The position numbers and the translations under genes were made by a program. A DNA stretch of 64,000 nucleotides from Eledone cirrhosa (Eukaryota), in the NCBI GenBank assembly GCA_964016885.1, contig OZ024751.1:53444001-53508000 (forward strand), given 5' to 3'. Every line of letters starts with the position of its first letter. The stretch's first letter is position 1. Shown here piece after piece: positions 36,886 through 61,567 of the stretch. The notes beneath the pieces are model-generated. The model ran no database searches. It was not told the origin of the DNA and saw only the letters and a list, made by a program, of their open reading frames with translations.

Positions 36886-36943
36886 CTTTATGCTCTGATG
36901 AGTCCCACTTATAGTGTGGATGAAACAATGTTAGCAAGTAAAG
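36886..36943 (+). ncRNA. Minimal type I hammerhead ribozyme (Penelope-terminus-like)
   Basis: CUUUA-UGCU | CUGAUGA | GUCCCAC-UUAUA-GUGUGGAU | GAAA | CA-A-UG | UU^ | AGCA-AG-UAAAG. Predicted cleavage between 36932 and 36933 (GUU triplet). Confidence 0.7.
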
Positions 36944-38280: not shown

Positions 38281-41084
<2,804 letters not shown>

Positions 41085-41168
41085 AAATTGAATAGAATGA
41101 AACGAAATTTCATTTCTCACTCTTAGTACGGCACTTACTTAAATGTAAAAAATGTAAAAGTGTGCCTG

Positions 41169-41237
<69 letters not shown>

Positions 41238-41670
41238 GCTACTGTACGTCTGTATACATATATGTATGTACGTATACATACATACTTACATTTAAGTAAG
41301 TGCAGTACTAAGTGTGAGAAATGAAATTTCGTTTCATTCTATTCCATTTATCGTTTTCGGTGCGCTTGGCCGACTGAACTCACTCGATATGCAAATTAGG
41401 CTGCTCAGCCGTTAATTTTCATAAGGAAAGTATATACTTTCGAACGTTCAACCTTATGGCAGAAAGGTATACGGTGCTGACGATAGCTAACAAGCTTGAA
41501 ACTAGTACATCGTTCCTGTGTCAGTGTTGAACCAAAAGGTGACGTGGCTGCCTGAACACTGTACGGCTTAATTCAGGCTGTCCGTTTGTTTACAAACGAA
41601 CAAAGCGAACATTATAATAAATGTTCGGTTAACTGATACGTGCATATATATATGTGTGCCTGTATGTATA
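41085..41670 (+). mobile_element. Diverged retrozyme-like unit (slightly more than one monomer) preceded by a 64-bp inverted fragment
   Basis: Colinear with the 422-bp unit at 47.8-49.4 kb. 41085-41148 is an imperfect inverted copy of 41286-41349, and GTGTGCCTGTATGTATA occurs at both ~41160 and ~41654. Confidence 0.8.
41471..41513 (+). ncRNA. Type I hammerhead ribozyme (diverged retrozyme copy)
   Basis: ACGGUG CUGACGA UAGCU-AACA-AGCUU GAAA CUAG UA^ CAUCGU; predicted cleavage 41507/41508. Confidence 0.85.
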
Positions 41671-42236
41671 TATATATGTATATATATATGTATATATATA
41701 TGTATATGTATATATATATATGTATATGTATATATATATATGTATATGTATATATTTATATGTATATATATATGTATATATATATGTATATGTATATATA
41801 TATGTATATATATATGTATATATATAATATATATATATATATATGTATATATATATGTATATATATATGTATATATATATGTATATATATATATATGTAT
41901 ATATATATATGTATATGTATATATATATCTATATATATGTATTTATGTATATATATGTATATATGTAAATATATTGTAATATATATATATATACTATATG
42001 TATATATATATGTATATTTATATGTATATGTATATGTATATATATGTATATATATATATATATGTATATATATGTATATATATATGTATATGTATATGTA
42101 TATATATATATATATGTGTGTATATGTATATTTATATGTATATGTATATATATATGTATATATATGTATATGTATATATATGTGTGTATGTATATATGTA
42201 TATATATATATATGTATATATATATATGTGCGTATG

Positions 42237-46012: not shown

Positions 46013-46984
46013 TATAGTGGACAGCTTCCGTTACCTGGGTGACAAAATCAGCAGTGGGGGAGGGTGCTCTGAAAGTACAGTAGCTAGAGTCAGAACTGGA
46101 TAGAAAAAGTTCAGAGAGCTTATACCACTATTAGCCGCTAAAGGGTTCTCCCTAAAAATGAAAGGCAGGCTGTATGATGCCTGCATACGAACCGCAATGT
46201 TGCATGGCAGTTAGACCTGGGCATTGTGTGCAGAGGATATACGCAGACTAGAGAGGAACGAAGCTTGCATGCTTCGCTGGATGTGTAATAGTAATATACG
46301 TGAACGGCAAAGCATAAACGAACTAAGGAAAAAATTAGAAATAAGAGGGATCAGATGTTGTTTACTCGAGAGAAGGCTACGTTGGTATGGTCACGTGATG
46401 CGCATGAAAGATGATAGCTGTATAACAAAGTGCAGGGCAATAAAGATAGACGGTAGCCACGGAGTAGGCAGACCCAGAAAAACCTGGGACGAGCTGATAA
46501 ATTCCGACTTCACACACTTACACCTCTCCAAGACAATGTCACTGGACCGAGACCTTTGGCGGTACTCAGTAATAGAGAAGACCCGCCTTACCTAAATACA
46601 AAGTAAAACCTACTACAGACAGTAGGCATCTCTAAAAAAATACACCACCCCCACCCCATCCACACCGCCCCTTTCAATGTAAAGTTATGTTGGTGCCACA
46701 ACATCCAGGCCGAAACAAATGAGATCGTGTAGGTGTCACGACAAAAAAACACACAGTCCACGCTGTAATGTGGCCGTGTAGGCAACACGGTAAAAACCTC
46801 CCAGCCCCACACTGTAAATGTGGTTGGTGTTAGGAAGGGCATCCAGCTGTAGAAAACCCGCCAGACAGTCCTATGCGAGCAAGACAATCACTCTTGCCTC
46901 AAGTGGGAAAACCCCCGTCCAAACCCATGCAAGCGTGGAACAAGGATGTTAAACGTTGATGATGATGATGATGATGATGATGAT
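46013..46984 (+). mobile_element. RTE LINE 3' fragment (C-terminal ORF with in-frame stops, 3' UTR, (GAT)n tail)
   Basis: [26 protein letters not shown]; near-identical to 56117-57086. Confidence 0.93.
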
Positions 46985-47225
46985 TTATATATATATATAT
47001 ATGTATATATATATAATATAAGTATGTACACGTACATACATATATGTATACCGACGTACAGTAGTATGTATATATATATATACATACATGCACACATATA
47101 TATATGCACGTATGGATTCACCGAACATTTATTATAATGCTCGGTGTGTTTGTAAACAAACATCCCGTATTAAGCCGTAGTGTCTAGCAACCACCGTTGC
47201 TCGTTTGTTCAACACTGACAAAGGA

Positions 47226-47268
47226 ACGCTGTACTAGTTTCAAGCTTGTTAGCTATCGTCAGCAACGT
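47226..47268 (-). ncRNA. Type I hammerhead ribozyme
   Basis: ACGUUG CUGACGA UAGCU-AACA-AGCUU GAAA CUAG UA^ CAGCGU. Confidence 0.85.
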
Positions 47269-47643
47269 ATACCTTCTTGCCAGATTGTTGAACGTATATA
47301 CTTACCTTATGCATATTAACGGCTGAGTAGCCCAATTTGCATATCGAGTGGGTTAATCGGCCGGGTGCACCGAAAACGATAAACGGAAAAAATGAAACGA
47401 TATTTCATTTCCCACTCTTAGTACGGCTGTTACTTAAATATAAGTATGTACACGTACATATATGTATACCGACGTACAGTAGTATGTATATATATATATA
47501 CATACATGCACACATATATATATGCACGTATGGATTCAACGAACATTTATTATAATGCTCGGTGTGTTTGTAAACAAACATCCCGTATTAAGCCGTAGTG
47601 TCTAGCAACCACCGTTGCTCGTTTGTTCAACACTGACAAAGGA

Positions 47644-47686
47644 ACGCTGTACTAGTTTCAAGCTTGTTAGCTATCGACAGCAACGT
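47644..47686 (-). ncRNA. Hammerhead with core mutation CUGUCGA (likely inactive)
   Basis: A at 47677 on the + strand changes A6 to U in the CUGANGA box. Confidence 0.75.
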
Positions 47687-47803
47687 ATACCTTCTTGCCA
47701 GATTGTTGAACGTATATACTTACCTTATGCATATTAACGGCCGTTAATATGCATAATATGCATAAGGTAAGTATATACGTTCAACAATCTGGCAAGAAGG
47801 TAT

Positions 47804-47846
47804 ACGTTGCTGACGATAGCTAACAAGCTTGAAACTAGTACAGCGT
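47804..47846 (+). ncRNA. Type I hammerhead ribozyme
   Basis: Same motif; predicted cleavage 47840/47841. Confidence 0.87.
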
Positions 47847-48225
47847 TCCTTTTTCAGTGTTGAACAAACGAGCAACGGTGGTTGCTAGACACTACGGCTT
47901 AATACGGGATGTTTGTTTACAAACACACCGAGCATTATAATAAATGTTCGGTGAATCCATACGTGCATATATATATGTGTGCATGTATGTATATATATAT
48001 ATACATACTACTGTACGTCGGTATACATATATGTATGTACGTGTACATACTTATATTTAAGTAACAGCCGTACTAAGAGTGGGAAATGAAATATCGTTTC
48101 ATTTTTTCCGTTTATCGTTTTCGGTGCACCCGGCCGATTAACCCACTCGATATGCAAATTGGGCTACTCAGCCGTTAATATGCATAAGGTAAGTATATAC
48201 GTTCAACAATCTGGCAAGAAGGTAT

Positions 48226-48268
48226 ACGTTGCTGACGATAGCTAACAAGCTTGAAACTAGTACAGCGT
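48226..48268 (+). ncRNA. Type I hammerhead ribozyme
   Basis: Same motif; predicted cleavage 48262/48263. Confidence 0.87.
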
Positions 48269-48647
48269 TCCTTTGTCAGTGTTGAACAAACGAGCAACGG
48301 TGGTTGCTAGACACTACGGCTTAATACGGGATGTTTGTTTACAAACACACCGAGCATTATAATAAATGTTCGGTGAATCCATACGTGCATATATATATGT
48401 GTGCATGTATGTATATATATATATACATACTACTGTACGTCGGTATACATATATCTATGTACGTGTACATACTTATATTTAAGTAACAGCCGTACTAAGA
48501 GTGGGAAATGAAATATCGTTTCATTTTTTCCGTTTATCGTTTTCGGTGCACCCGGCCGATTAACCCACTCGATATGCAAATTGGGCTACTCAGCCGTTAA
48601 TATGCATAAGGTAAGTATATACGTTCAACAATCTGGCAAGAAGGTAT

Positions 48648-48690
48648 ACGTTGCTGACGATAGCTAACAAGCTTGAAACTAGTACAGCGT
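48648..48690 (+). ncRNA. Type I hammerhead ribozyme
   Basis: Same motif; predicted cleavage 48684/48685. Confidence 0.87.
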
Positions 48691-49069
48691 TCCTTTGTCA
48701 TTGTTGAACAAACGAGCAACGGTGGTTGCTAGGCACTACGGCTTAATACGGGATGTTTGTTTACAAACACACCGAGCATTATAATAAATGTTCGGTGAAT
48801 CCATACGTGCATATATATATGTGTGCATGTATGTATATATATATATACATACTACTGTACGTCGGTATACATATATGTATGTACGTGTACATACTTATAT
48901 TTAAGTAACAGCCGTACTAAGAGTGGGAAATAAAATATCGTTTCATTTTTTCCGTTTATCGTTTTCGGTGCACCCGGCCGATTAACCCACTCGATATGCA
49001 AATTGGGCTACTCAGCCGTTAATATGCATAAGGTAAGTATATACGTTCAACAATCTGGCAAGAAGGTAT

Positions 49070-49112
49070 ACGTTGCTGACGATAGCTAACAAGCTTGAAA
49101 CTAGTACAGCGT
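49070..49112 (+). ncRNA. Type I hammerhead ribozyme
   Basis: Same motif; predicted cleavage 49106/49107. Confidence 0.87.
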
Positions 49113-49376
49113 TCCTTTGTCAGTGTTGAACAAACGAGCAACGGTGGTTGCTAGACACTACGGCTTAATACGGGATGTTTGTTTACAAACACACCGAGCA
49201 TTATAATAAATGTTCGGTGAATCCATACGTGCATATATATATGTGTGCATGTATGTATATATATATATACATACTACTGTACGTCGGTATACATATATGT
49301 ATGTACGTGTACATACTTATATTTAAGTAACAGCCGTACTAAGAGTGGGAAATGAAATATCGTTTCATTTTTTCCG

Positions 49377-49411
<35 letters not shown>

Positions 49412-49965: not shown

Positions 49966-50313
49966 GTGGGGCATGCACGTGTATCTTATTTATATATGGT
50001 TATTGTGCGGCAGGGTGTTATATGCAATACAAGCTCTTTAAGTGGGTAATCAAGAGTATTGTAGAGGTTGTAGTGGTAATGTATTTTTTGTGTATGATAA
50101 AGAAGCTTGTGTGTAGAGAAATAGTATAAATGAGAAGTTTGCTTCTCATTTATACTATTTCTCTACACACAAGCTTCTTTATCATACACAAAAAATACAT
50201 TACCACTACAACCTCCATAATACTCTTGATTACCCACTTAAAGTGCTTGTATTGCATATAACACCCTGCCGCACAATAATCATATATAAATAAGACACAC
50301 GTGCATGCCCCAC
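49966..50313. repeat. Long fold-back inverted repeat with 172-bp arms and a 4-nt loop
   Basis: 49966-50137 versus 50142-50313, with about 5 mismatches. Confidence 0.95.
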
Positions 50314-52135: not shown

Positions 52136-52225
52136 GTCATTATTATTATTAGTACTTATTATTATTATTATTAGTACTTATTATTATTATTATTAGTACT
52201 TATTATTAGTACTTATTATTATTAG

Positions 52226-53415
52226 TAAAGGGCGGTGGATTGGCAGTATCAGTAGAGGGTCGGACACCATGCTTTCCAGCATAATTACGTCCCTTTATGA
52301 TCTGAGTTCAAATCCTGCCGAGGTTAACTTTGCCTTTCATCCTTACGGGGTCGATAAAATAAAGTACCAGTAATGTACTGGGTTATTGTTGGCCTTGTGC
52401 CAAAAGTAGAAACAATTATTACTATTAGTACTATTAGTATTATTATTATTATCATTATTAGGAAGGTGGATTGGCAGTATCGGTAGAGAGTCAGATGCTA
52501 TGCTTTGCAGCATAGAGTTACGGCCCTTTATGATCTGAGTTCAAATCCCGCCGAGGTTAACTTTGCCTTTCATCCTTACGGGGTCGATAAAATAAAGTAC
52601 CAGTAATGTACTGGGTTATTGCTGGCCTTGTGCCAAAAGTAGAAACAATTATTACTATTAGTACTATTAGTATTATTATTATTATCATTTTGTTTTTTAT
52701 TATCATTTTGTTTTTTACACGCAGAAATGCCCATTTGTACCGTCCTGCATTGTCCTGCACTGTCCTTAATGTCTACTTTATGTAAACCCTTGAGGTTAAT
52801 AAAGAAATCATTATTAGGAAGGTGGATTGGCAGTATCGGTAGAGAGTCAGATGCTATGCTTTGCAGCATAGAGTTACGGCCCTTTATAATCTGAGTTCAT
52901 ATCCCGCTGAGGTTAACTTTGCCTTTCATCCTTATGAGGTCGATAAAGTAAAGTACCAGTAATGCACTGGGGTCGATTTAATCGACTTTCCCCGCCCCCA
53001 AAATTGCTGGCCTATATAAGAAACCATTGGCAGTATCGGTAAGGGTCGGACGCCATGCTTTGAAGCATAGAGTTACCTCCCTTTATGATCTGAGTTCAAA
53101 TCCCGCCGAGGTTAACTTTGCCTTTCATCCTTACGGGGGTCGATAAAATAAAGTACCAGTAATGCACTGGGTAATTGCTGGCCTTGTGCCAAAAGTAGAA
53201 ACAATTATTATTATTATCATTATTAGGAAGGTGGATTGGCAGTATCAGTAGAGAGTCAGACACCATGCTTTGCAGCAAGGAGTTACGGCCCTTTATAGTC
53301 TGAGTTCAAATCTCGCCGAGGTTAACTTTGCCTTTCATGCTTACGGGGTCGATAAAATAAAGTACCAGTAATACACTGGGATAATTGCTGGCCTTGTGCC
53401 AAAAGTAGAAACAAT
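52226..53415 (+). mobile_element. Five tandem copies of a tRNA-derived SINE separated by (ATT)n tails
   Basis: Repeated TGGCAGTATCGGTAG (A-box-like) and GAGTTCAAATCC (B-box), then AACTTTGCCTTTCATCCTTACGGGGTCGATAAAATAAAGTACCAG...GGCCTTGTGCCAAAAGTAGAAAC. Confidence 0.85.
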
Positions 53416-53790
53416 TATTAATACTATATTAGTAGTAGCAGCAGTAGCAGTAGTAGTAGCAGTAGTATTTCAGTAGTATTTCATTTGATCTTATTTACAT
53501 CATCGTTATCATTTGTTCATTGTCCAATCTTCTATTTCCATTGTCCTACTTTACATTATTTTCATCTTGTTTTCTTCTGGTATCTGAAATATTTGGGGAA
53601 AATAACAACAACAACACCAATAACTGCAAGGACAAAAACAAAGAAGAAGAAATAACCAAAATAAATGGGAGGGGGACATTTTCTTCTTATTCAATAAAGA
53701 AGGTGGAGAAAGTGATTGGCATGTTGACTGCAATATGTACAATGATATACAAGCACTTGTATATATACACACACACATACAGACACACAC

Positions 53791-55495: not shown

Positions 55496-57086
55496 CCTTC
55501 GACAGAGTCCCCCGTTCCATTATCTGGTGGGCTCTTAGAAAACTAGGTGTTGATGAATGGCTTGTGAGAGCTATACAAGCCATGTATAAAGAAACAGTCA
55601 GCAAGGTTAGAATTAACAACGAATAGAGTTTAGCGTAAAAGTTGGTGTTCATCAGGGCTCCGTTCTTAGCCCCTACTATTTATTATTGCCCTTCAGGCTA
55701 TAACAGTGGAGTTCAAGACCGGCTGCCCATGGGAACTCCTATACGCAGATGATCTAACGCTCATAGCTGAATCAATGGCCGAACTAGAGAAGAAATTCCA
55801 AACATGGAAGCATGGCCTAGAATCAAAAGGCCTTAAAATTAACCTGTCTAAGACTAAAGTTCTAGTTTGTAGGAAGGAAAATAGGGCACCGGTCCCATCC
55901 GAGAAATGGCCATACTCAGTGTGTAGGAAAGGAGTAGGTAGAAACTCCATTTTATGTCCCAAATGCAAAGTATGGGTGCATAAAAGATGTAGTGGGATCA
56001 CAGGTAAGCTAACTAAGAACATAGATTTTACATGTGGCCGGTGCTCTGGTGCAATAAGTAGCAGCAAATGCCCACAGAATACTAGCTCTTTCAATTGCAC
56101 AGAGGGTTCTATAGAAATAGTGGACAGCTTCCGTTACCTGGGTGACAAAATCAGCAGTGGGGGAGGGTGCTCTGAAAGTACAGTAGCTAGAGTCAGAACT
56201 GGATGGAAAAAGTTCAGAGAGCTTATACCACTATTAGCCGCTAAAGGGTTCTCCCTAAAAATGAAAGGCAGGCTGTATGATGCCTGCATACGAACAGCAA
56301 TGTTGCATGGCAGTGAGACCCGGGCATTGTGCGCAGAGGATATACGCAGACTAGAGAGGAACGAAGCTTGAATGCTCCGCTGGATGTGTAATAGTAATAT
56401 ACGTGAACGTCAAAGCGTTAACGAACTAAGGGAAAAATTAGAAATAAGAGGGATCAAATGTTGTTTACTCGAGAGAAGGCTACGTTGGTATGGTCACGTG
56501 ATGCGCATGAAAGACGACAGCTGTATAAAAAAGTGCATGGCAATAAAAATAGATGGTAGCCACGGAGTAGGCAGACCCAGAAAAACCTGGGATGACTTGA
56601 TAAATTCCAACCTAACACACTTACACCTCTCCAAGACAATGTCACTGGACCGAGATCTTTGGCGCTACACAGTAATAGAGAAGACCCGCCTTAACTAAAT
56701 ACAAAGTAAAACCTACTACAGTCAGTAGGCACCTCTAACAAAATACACCCCCGTCCCACTACCCCCACCCCATCCACACCGCCCCTTTCAATGTAAAGTT
56801 ATGTTGGTACCACAACATACAGGCCGAAACAAATGAGGTCGTGTAGGTGTCATGACAAAAATAACACACAGTCCACGCTGTAATGTGGCCGTGTAGGTAA
56901 CACGGTAAAAACCTCCCAGTCTACATTGTAAATGTGGTTGGTGTTAGGAAGGGCATCCAGCCGTAGAAACCCCGCCAGACAGTCCTTTGCGAGCAAGACA
57001 ACCACTCTTGCCTCAAGTGGGAAAACTCCTGTCCAAACCCATGCAAGCATGGAAGATGGACGTTAAACGATGATGATGATGATGAT
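55496..57086 (+). mobile_element. RTE LINE, 5'-truncated with stops and frameshift; 3' UTR and (GAT)n tail
   Basis: LLYADDL, Cys-rich finger, FRYLG, RRLRWYGH; same family as 1-2057. Confidence 0.94.
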
Positions 57087-60655: not shown

Positions 60656-61567
60656 GGAGGGCTCTGTAGAAACAGTAGACAGCTTCTGCTACCTAGGTGA
60701 CTGAATTAGCAGCGGAGGTGGGTGTTCAGAAAGTACAATAACTAGGGTAAGAACGGGATGGAAGAAGTTTAGGGAACTACTACCACTGCTAGCTGCAAAA
60801 GGCTTCTCCCTCAGAATGAAAGGCAGACTGTATGATGCGTGTATCCGAACAGCAATGTTGCATGGTAGTGAGACCTGGGCACTGAAGGTGGAAGACTTAC
60901 GTAGATTAGAGAGAAACGAAGCCTGCATGCTCCGATGGATGTGTAACAGTAATATACGTGAACGACAAAGCATAAATGAATTGAGAGAGAGACTGAGCAT
61001 AAGAGGAATCAAATGCTGTGTGCAGGAGAGGCGGTTGCGCTGGTATGGACATGTGATGCGTATGAAGGATGACAGCTGCATAAAAAGGTGCAGAGCACTA
61101 GAAGTTGATGGAAACCGCGAAGTGGGGAGACCCAAGATGACCTGGGATGAGGTGATAAAAGCCGACCTTACCCAATTACACCTATCAAAGGCAATGACAC
61201 ACGACCATGACTTCTGGCGTCACACAGTAATACAGAGTACCCGACCTCCCATGGGTACAAGCTGAAGCATATAGACAATATGCCCCCACACCCCCCACCG
61301 CAAGGTGGTCGTGGAGGTGCCACGGCAAAAAAGCACCCAGCCCACACTGTAAAGTGGACGTGGAGGCGCCACGAAAAAGCACCCAGCACTCACTGTAAAT
61401 GAGGTTGGTGTTAGGAAGGGCATCCAGCTGTAGAAATCAAGCCAAATCAGTTCCTGTATGAGCAAGGCATGGTCAGCCGACCAGATACTGCCCACAACAG
61501 GACAACCCGTCTAACCCATGCTAGCGTGGAAGAACGGACGTAAAACGGTGATGATGATGATGATGAT
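60656..61567 (+). mobile_element. RTE LINE 3' fragment, second subfamily, intronic and antisense to the gene
   Basis: ORF 60816-61265 is homologous to the RTE C-terminus; (GAT)n tail. Confidence 0.92.

What the first reader, a model, noticed from the sequence alone, without database searches (positions are those of the whole stretch)
41161..41670. Diverged retrozyme copy shows compensatory changes that preserve the RNA fold
Seen in sequence: the core CUGACGAUAGCUAACAAGCUUGAAACUAGUA is identical to the array while the flanks differ. Helix I changes from ACGUUG/CAGCGU to ACGGUG/CAUCGU (U.G swapped for G.U). CGAGCAUU/AAUGUUCG becomes CGAACAUU/AAUGUUCG, AGUGUU/GACACU becomes CAGUGUU/AACACUG, and the AGCAAC/GUUGCU hairpin is replaced by AGGUG/UGCCU. 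Inference: selection acts on RNA structure across two subfamilies, so this is unlikely to be ordinary satellite DNA.
Basis: partly seen in the sequence, partly recalled or inferred. Interest (0 to 1): 0.78.

Follow-up and report, generated by a model that had tools for sequence, protein, structure and literature searches.

The report
Ribozyme repeat with Penelope insertion footprint
This is a decaying copy of a repeat family, present thousands of times in this genome, that carries a hammerhead motif predicted to cut its own RNA; its variants keep their predicted RNA fold through paired changes, and its insertions end at the same kind of two fixed sites as Penelope-like transposons, which likely copy it into TA microsatellites.

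Summary
41160-41676 is a subfamily-B copy of a 420-470 bp repeat with a type I hammerhead motif (core 41477-41507); the array at 47015-49381 is subfamily A. The genome holds at least 14,088 such cores, sorted here into nine subfamilies. Between subfamilies, helices covary beyond chance and the catalytic core is unchanged. Individual copies, this one included, mutate at the background rate in pairs and core, so selection acts on the transposing lineage, not on this locus. New here: insertions sit in (TA)n and have scattered 5' ends, but their 3' ends fall at two fixed sites 55-75 nt apart. In 35 of 35 scored inverted insertions one arm ends at each site. An autonomous RT/GIY-YIG Penelope-like element in the same genome shows the same pattern (6 of 6). 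Verdict: a new animal non-LTR retrozyme family, likely mobilised by a Neptune/Nematis-type PLE. Expression, cleavage, circular RNA and the exact partner are untested.

The parts
41083..41148 (-). Inverted, 5'-truncated arm of the subfamily-B insertion; spans just the tail between the two fixed end sites and ends at site E2, fused to (TA)n
   Evidence: 66 nt, 95% complementary to 41286-41351; E2 end
41160..41676 (+). Forward arm, about 1.1 units of subfamily B1; starts in the TA-rich rod and ends in the internal TA run, so the expected E1 end is missing
   Evidence: 97.5% identical to the B1 majority over 319 nt
41172..41235 (+). Expanded internal (TA)n hairpin inside the unit; its length varies between copies
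41284..41293 (+). Site E1 sequence (small hairpin loop), an inferred first reverse-transcription start; internal in this copy
   Evidence: 3' ends of other insertions pile up here
41318..41351 (+). Tail hairpin and pyrimidine linker ending at site E2, an inferred second reverse-transcription start
41445..41533 (+). Type I hammerhead domain: extended helix I, helix I 41471-41476/41508-41513, CUGACGA 41477-41483, helix II 41484-41497 (U.U at its base, AACA loop), GAAA 41498-41501, palindromic helix III ACUAGU, predicted cut after GUA at 41507
   Evidence: cleavage is predicted, not assayed
41537..41553 (+). Hairpin H1, homologue of the array's AGCAAC/GUUGCU hairpin; private T>C at 41548 breaks one pair
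41561..41567 (+). 5' strand of the long-range helix GUACGGC/GCCGUAC, which covaries across subfamilies
41608..41628 (+). Hairpin H3 (CGAACAUU/AAUGUUCG)
47015..47741 (-). Subfamily A1 insertion, left arm (1.7 units), ending at site E1 in (TA)n
47754..49381 (+). Subfamily A1 insertion, right arm (3.9 units of 422 bp), ending at site E2 in (TA)n; all 6 units of both arms share one variant against the A1 majority

Best explanation
The stretch is a neutrally decaying insertion of a high-copy hammerhead repeat whose subfamilies keep one predicted RNA fold; the family is likely a non-autonomous retrozyme, predicted to self-cleave into unit RNAs that would circularise and be copied into (TA)n by a Penelope-like RT/GIY-YIG protein in trans. 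Shown in DNA: hammerhead topology, covariation between subfamilies, neutral decay of copies, (TA)n flanks, scattered 5' ends, two fixed 3' ends, and one arm at each end site in inverted insertions. Inferred: (1) tandem copies are transcribed and cut at each GUH; (2) unit RNAs are ligated to circles, by analogy with coral, mussel and axolotl; (3) a Neptune/Nematis-type PLE protein nicks both strands of a TA tract and starts reverse transcription at internal sites E1 and E2, about 215-245 and 275-305 nt downstream of the cut, one site per strand, by analogy with the anole PLE in vitro; (4) each cDNA runs round the template for a variable length, and the two 5' ends join, giving divergent arms. 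Only lineages that keep the fold keep transposing, which explains covariation between subfamilies and neutral decay within them.
For: Core counts 2,746 (control 0) plus 11,342 with a non-T base at position 10.1 (control 10). With the fold taken from one sequence alone: A1>B1 broken pairs 11 vs 17.6 expected (P=0.001); C>E 0 vs 2.8 (P=0.002); F>D two-sided changes 16 vs 7.1 (P=0.0003); core 0 of 16 changed in five of seven comparisons and only the cleavage-site base in two. Hammerhead stems: 6 of 15 pairs change on both sides, 95% of cells paired against 32-48% for slid partners. A subfamily E copy matches Rfam Hammerhead_HH9 at E=2e-6. About 100 of 116 BLAST-defined 3' ends fall at E1 or E2 (my hand count), while the 5' starts shown of 140 are scattered. 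35 of 35 scored inverted insertions pair E1 with E2. Autonomous PLEs with RT, C-terminal GIY-YIG and a CX4CxxC linker are present and show two fixed (TA)n-fused ends 62 nt apart, one per arm in 6 of 6. Arms cross the ribozyme cut site up to 31 times, and both arms share variants in four A1 insertions.
Against: No RNA evidence of any kind. The A/B/F hammerhead has U.U or C.A at the base of helix II, and this copy has no Rfam hammerhead hit at E<=10; in the Xenopus preprint 8 of 9 predicted retrozymes did not cleave in vitro. No PLE with this repeat as its pLTR was found in 50 GIY-YIG loci, so the partner is unnamed. Sequence likeness between the E2 context and one PLE end is weak, post hoc and absent for subfamilies F, C and E. 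Structure is not kept everywhere: 11 of 85 A1 pairs break in B1, 29 of 97 F pairs break in D, B2>B3 shows no deficit of broken pairs (P=0.14), and under the A1 fold paired sites change about as often as unpaired ones (24 of 170 vs 24 of 147). A1 has lost one hairpin by an 8-nt deletion. One A1 array has a variant in one arm only. This copy's forward arm does not end at E1 or E2.
Confidence: 0.75

Rival explanations
1. The repeat is the pseudo-LTR of an autonomous PLE that was not sampled; the copies are 5'-truncated insertions of that element rather than an independent parasite.
For: Same end footprint as PLEs; short inverted pLTR-only insertions of a real PLE exist in this genome (L232, L234, L241); only 50 loci of 10,595 GIY-YIG candidates were screened; Xenopus retrozymes are homologous to pLTRs.
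Against: Pure tandem runs of up to 31 units without an ORF; 5' junctions are mostly the inverted arm or varied flanks, with no recurring upstream sequence among the starts shown; 0 of 50 GIY-YIG loci carry it as UTR, three hold copies nearby (L171 and L174 beside TA tracts, L105 not inspected); the hammerhead is of the canonical long-helix-I type, not the minimal PLE type.
Confidence: 0.1
2. The repeat is copied by a PLE from linear read-through multimers, the ribozyme is weak or vestigial, and arrays grow by unequal crossing-over; no circle is needed.
For: The anole PLE uses uncleaved RNA and does not need its hammerhead in vitro; U.U at the base of helix II; one array alternates two unit variants (L225), which a higher-order duplication also explains.
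Against: The catalytic core is invariant across subfamilies that differ at about 40% of scored sites; helix I extends for 20-25 pairs and would hold the cut ends together; variants are shared across inverted arms.
Confidence: 0.1
3. A LINE (RTE, L1 or R4 type) mobilises it by ordinary target-primed reverse transcription with twin priming, or it is a DNA-level satellite or Helitron-like repeat.
For: RTE-like fragments are common in the window (family name recalled); twin priming also gives divergent arms (recalled).
Against: No poly(A) or 3' repeat of its own; both outer ends are at fixed internal sites rather than one fixed and one random; no conserved flanking element; a DNA-level process does not explain the invariant ribozyme core.
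Confidence: 0.04
4. This locus encodes a host-functional structured RNA under selection at the locus.
For: Stable predicted fold (z=-5.8) and an intact core.
Against: 8 private changes in 319 nt, 2 breaking pairs; its own inverted arm differs from it at 3 of 66 nt; copies decay neutrally as a class; it has one hammerhead only and lies in a 4-kb microsatellite.
Confidence: 0.02

Closest known systems
Animal non-LTR retrozymes (Cervera and de la Pena 2020, PMC7229834: coral, mussel, axolotl; newt satellite 2)
   Same: Tandem units in the few-hundred-bp range, GC under 50%, one canonical type I hammerhead per unit with 6-bp helix I and short palindromic helix III, no ORF, thousands of copies, highly self-paired predicted fold. 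A U.U mismatch at the base of helix II is described there for axolotl HHR_Amex2.
   Different: Units of 420-470 bp are at or above the 150-450 bp range given there. In the passages I saw, those elements are described with TSDs when present; inverted arms, two fixed ends and (TA)n targeting were not seen ('inverted' and 'microsatellite' occur 0 times in that main text). RNA, cleavage and circles were shown there and are untested here.
Xenopus and vertebrate retrozymes derived from PLE pLTRs (Li, Clavereau, Pollet 2026, bioRxiv 10.64898/2026.07.22.740005)
   Same: Proposes that animal retrozymes are non-autonomous PLE derivatives; PLEs co-occur with them here too.
   Different: Their evidence is co-occurrence and pLTR homology. 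Here no homologous pLTR was found, and the evidence is the insertion footprint.
EN+ Penelope-like elements, Neptune/Nematis type (Craig et al. 2021, 10.1101/2021.04.23.441226; Frangieh et al. 2024, PMC11167929)
   Same: Partial tandems, an inverted 5'-truncated copy, a tail on one end only, microsatellite or AT-rich targets, two internal reverse-transcription start sites downstream of a hammerhead.
   Different: No RT or endonuclease ORF; the tail is 55-75 nt rather than 30-40; the ends share a few T/A bases with the target, whereas the anole start site is not homologous to the cut DNA; the hammerhead is canonical rather than minimal.

Membership tests
Type I hammerhead ribozyme | CUGANGA, GAAA and NUH around three helices, helix I open | tested here: met
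   core unchanged across subfamilies
Type I hammerhead ribozyme | G10.1-C11.1 pair at the base of helix II | tested here: not met
   U.U in subfamilies A and B (this copy), C.A in F; G-C in C, D, E. U.U is known in axolotl HHR_Amex2, 22% cleavage as a monomer, so it lowers predicted activity without excluding membership
Type I hammerhead ribozyme | Rfam hammerhead model at gathering score | tested here: inconclusive
   no hit for the window or this copy at E<=10; a subfamily E copy scores 31.8 bits, E=2e-6, on Hammerhead_HH9, below the gathering score of 52
Type I hammerhead ribozyme | Self-cleavage | not testable with these tools
   needs in vitro transcription
Animal non-LTR retrozyme | Tandem units of a few hundred bp, one type I hammerhead each, GC under 50% | tested here: met
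   units 420-470 bp, longer where the TA run expands; GC 0.38 over the array; this copy itself is a monomer
Animal non-LTR retrozyme | No ORF and no LTR architecture | tested here: met
   no non-repetitive ORF of 140 aa or more over either insertion; units are contiguous, without a central region; PBS and PPT were not searched separately
Animal non-LTR retrozyme | Dispersed, high-copy, recently mobile | tested here: met
   matches on many chromosome-scale contigs
Animal non-LTR retrozyme | Expressed as linear and circular unit RNAs | not testable with these tools
   no RNA holder listed; the two guessed-RNA runs laid nothing; no evidence either way
Animal non-LTR retrozyme | Target-site duplication when present | tested here: inconclusive
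   flanks are (TA)n on both sides, so a TSD cannot be read
PLE-mobilised element | Tandem plus inverted 5'-truncated arrangement | tested here: met
PLE-mobilised element | Two fixed 3' ends with a tail on one end only | tested here: met
   35 of 35 scored inverted insertions; PLE control 6 of 6
PLE-mobilised element | Insertion in AT-rich or (TA)n targets | tested here: met
PLE-mobilised element | Homology to the pLTR of an autonomous partner | tested here: inconclusive
   none in 50 GIY-YIG loci; weak likeness of one end context only
Autonomous PLE | RT plus GIY-YIG ORF | tested here: not met
   no tblastn match of five PLE proteins in the window at E<=1e-4

The most novel reading that the evidence does not exclude
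Animal retrozyme circles are copied by a Neptune/Nematis-type PLE complex that primes both strands of a (TA)n target from two structure-defined internal sites on one circular RNA, strictly one site per strand. The paired-end rule is then a genomic read-out that names PLEs as the retrozyme transposase without sequence homology, and it offers a 420-nt natural substrate for explaining how PLE tandem, inverted and tail structures arise.
Probability: 0.55. Interest if true: 0.72.

Novelty: new member of a known kind. Interest (0 to 1): 0.5.

Why it matters
Which reverse transcriptase spreads animal retrozymes is open: the 2020 paper names LINEs or PLEs as candidates, and a 2026 preprint argues for PLEs from co-occurrence and pLTR homology. 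This family gives a different kind of evidence, the insertion footprint, with a PLE control in the same genome. It predicts exact reverse-transcription start sites on a short RNA, which can be tested in the existing in vitro PLE assay (PMC11167929). The element class itself is known.

Tried and rejected
Rfam at gathering score: no hammerhead in the window. Expression: no RNA holder listed; runs X1 and X2 (RNA is a guess) laid nothing, and X6 and X7 hold pieces of A- and B-like units; none of this is evidence on expression, and the second lay was not used. Partner search: the two or four unit queries against 30 plus 20 GIY-YIG loci found only nested copies. A pattern for other helix III loops (408 matches, control 28) returned mostly decayed copies of known subfamilies; 14 odd matches fetched had unrelated flanks and were left out (output partly cut). 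A first, loose end classifier gave 17 same-site pairs among 67 rows; on inspection each had one side that was not a TA-fused end (palindromic or internal hits), so a stricter classifier was written after seeing those data, and one duplicate false row of 36 was dropped. Fold z-scores (-7.8, -5.8) were not relied on, because the TA-rich rod is trivially self-complementary; it was excluded. The tail likeness to one PLE end is kept only as a hint. Earlier scan notes: one unrelated look-alike, none by words or place. The organism was not determined.

Full report
Observation. The window is G000:C11:53444001-53508000 of a 3.0-Gb genome; the organism was not determined. The 31-nt core occurs 7 times in the window, once at 41477-41507 and six times in an array at 47015-49381; shuffles give none. 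It reads as a type I hammerhead: helix I 5' strand, CUGACGA, helix II (AGCU/AGCU, AACA loop, U.U at the base), GAAA, palindromic helix III ACUAGU, GUA, helix I 3' strand. Helix I carries a true two-sided U.G to G.U change. The H3 change is one-sided. The H1 hairpin is the same hairpin with compensations. The fourth helix competes with the helix I extension, which wins in all nine consensuses. The insertion also has a 66-nt inverted arm at 41083-41148.

Family. The exact 29-nt core has 2,746 matches in the genome, control 0. The subfamily-B form of helix I plus core has 609 exact matches, and the best relatives of this copy are 96-97% identical, dispersed and often tandem. A relaxed pattern that excludes T at position 10.1 adds 11,342 matches, control 10. 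The two sets are disjoint, so there are at least 14,088 cores. From fetched loci I sorted 127 of 134 full units into subfamilies (7 unassigned) and built nine majority sequences, F from 11 partial copies. They align end to end and fold alike: an extended helix I rod carrying the ribozyme, closed by a multibranch loop with hairpins, a long-range helix and a TA-rich rod. A subfamily E copy matches Rfam Hammerhead_HH9 at E=2e-6, below gathering; this copy matches no hammerhead model.

Covariation. To limit circularity, pairs were taken from one sequence alone (probability at least 0.5, TA rod excluded), scored on a second through a sequence-only alignment, and compared with random placement of the same substitutions. 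A1>B1: 68 of 85 pairs unchanged, 3 one-sided, 3 two-sided, 11 broken against 17.6 expected (P=0.001). B1>A1: 3 broken of 73 against 5.8 (P=0.001). C>E: 0 broken of 103 (P=0.002). A2>F: 2 broken against 9.8. F>D: 16 two-sided changes against 7.1 (P=0.0003), though 29 of 97 pairs break or misalign. B2>B3: two two-sided changes (P=0.006) but no deficit of breaks (P=0.14). The 16 core positions are unchanged in five of seven comparisons; only the cleavage-site base changes in two. These comparisons share branches and are not all independent. On six real copies, 6 of 15 hammerhead pairs change on both sides and slid controls fall to 32-48% paired (one row lacks the 5' part).

Level of selection. 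In 62 B1 copies from the 30 loci (the best-scoring relatives, so biased to low divergence but not to the core), private mutations fall at 0.47 per paired site, 0.38 per unpaired site and 0.33 per core site. Of 90 in pairs, 27 keep pairing, against 26.2 expected at random. This copy has 8 differences in 319 nt, two of which break pairs, none in the core. Core-mutated copies are also seen genome-wide. So the fold is selected in the lineage that transposes, and inserted copies decay neutrally.

Insertion footprint. The 5' starts shown of 140 are scattered over the unit (output partly cut), but about 100 of 116 3' ends lie at two sites, E1 and E2, in all four reference subfamilies, nearly all fused to TA-type runs (my hand count). 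E1 and E2 lie about 215-245 and 275-305 nt after the ribozyme cut and are 55-75 nt apart. Many insertions have two divergent arms. With a strict classifier written after a looser one gave false rows, 35 distinct inverted insertions had both ends readable: 17 have E1 left and E2 right, 18 the reverse, none the same site twice (36 rows, one false duplicate dropped). The window's array is one of them. The copy in question has the E2 arm, but its other arm ends in the internal TA run; loss of the E1 end by slippage is inferred. All units and both arms share variants in the window array and three other A1 insertions; one array has a further variant on one arm only. One arm at C1:5.74 Mb has 31 units.

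Control and partner. A GIY-YIG search gave 10,595 candidates, 150 scored. Four long frames carry RT; three also score for GIY-YIG, and all four have a CX4CxxC linker near the C-terminus, which Craig et al. give for Neptune and Nematis PLEs. One family has a hammerhead-like motif in its pLTR and two fixed (TA)n-fused ends 62 nt apart; 6 of 6 scored inverted insertions have one arm at each (the query held the tail, so at least one long end was favoured). One inverted insertion of a second family does the same (L172). None of 50 GIY-YIG loci has the retrozyme as its pLTR. The E2 context resembles one PLE end weakly (P=0.001-0.054 for A and B, not for F, C, E; post hoc). The partner class is therefore inferred and the partner family unknown.

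Mechanism. Frangieh et al. (PMC11167929, main text read) show that an anole PLE cuts and extends both strands of AT-rich DNA and starts reverse transcription at two internal RNA sites, the tail being the sequence between them. Craig et al. (passages) describe the inverted truncated copy, the tail usually on one end, and (TA)n bias. The retrozyme footprint matches these points. Transcription, self-cleavage, circularisation and rolling-circle copying are inferred from Cervera and de la Pena 2020 (passages and Discussion; supplement unreadable) and were not tested: no RNA holder was listed.

Novelty. Animal non-LTR retrozymes are known, and PLEs were proposed as their partner (Cervera and de la Pena 2014, parts 1-2 of 4; Li et al. 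2026, parts 1-3 of 5). Five full-text searches listed no title or abstract start describing PLE-type paired ends, tails or (TA)n targeting for a retrozyme, and the retrozyme texts I read do not describe them; subscription papers and unread supplements are outside that claim. An Octopus vulgaris repeat annotation has 0 occurrences of ribozyme or retrozyme (passages), but I did not show that this genome is a cephalopod. Verdict: new member of a known kind, with new footprint evidence on an open question; interest 0.5.

Noticed in passing
window 36889-36940 (+): An unrelated type I hammerhead-like motif; a near-identical one lies in L168, so it belongs to another repeat family.
   Followed up: partly
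window about 22490-22570 (-): A hammerhead-like motif of a third family with a long helix II and a TATATA loop III, next to TA tracts; relatives in L035 and L046, and looser look-alikes in L013, L015, L025, L056, L063, L173. Possibly pLTRs or another retrozyme.
   Followed up: partly
window 49966-50313: A 172-nt inverted repeat, 97% complementary, with a 4-nt spacer; possibly another inverted retroelement junction.
   Followed up: no
window 46068-46592, 56171-56692, 60726-61244, 1-1399: Several fragments of one LINE-like RT family; RTE-like by recall.
   Followed up: no
window 52183-53435: Tandem copies of a 210-233 bp repeat that looks tRNA-derived and recurs in about 50 fetched loci; SINE by inference.
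   Followed up: no
L161 pLTR (G000:C1:145875756-145875960, -): The PLE family used as control has a hammerhead-like motif with a U3/A8 core variant, a palindromic ACCGGU helix III and a GUA site; a U3-A8 variant is described for Schistosoma PLEs.
   Followed up: partly
L163:1275-4562 (+): [quoted passage not shown]
   Followed up: partly
L225 (G000:C1:319892500-319898000): A B3 array whose five units alternate between two variants, one with changed helix II and helix III loop; fits a two-unit circular template or a higher-order duplication.
   Followed up: partly
L211-L223: Old dispersed hammerhead-like motifs, most with an ACAUGU helix III, in diverged flanks; perhaps relics of an older family.
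   Followed up: partly
L244-L257 (G000:C3:68.08-68.11 Mb): A roughly 900-bp tandem array whose unit joins a PLE pLTR end, a TA run and the end of another repeat.
   Followed up: no
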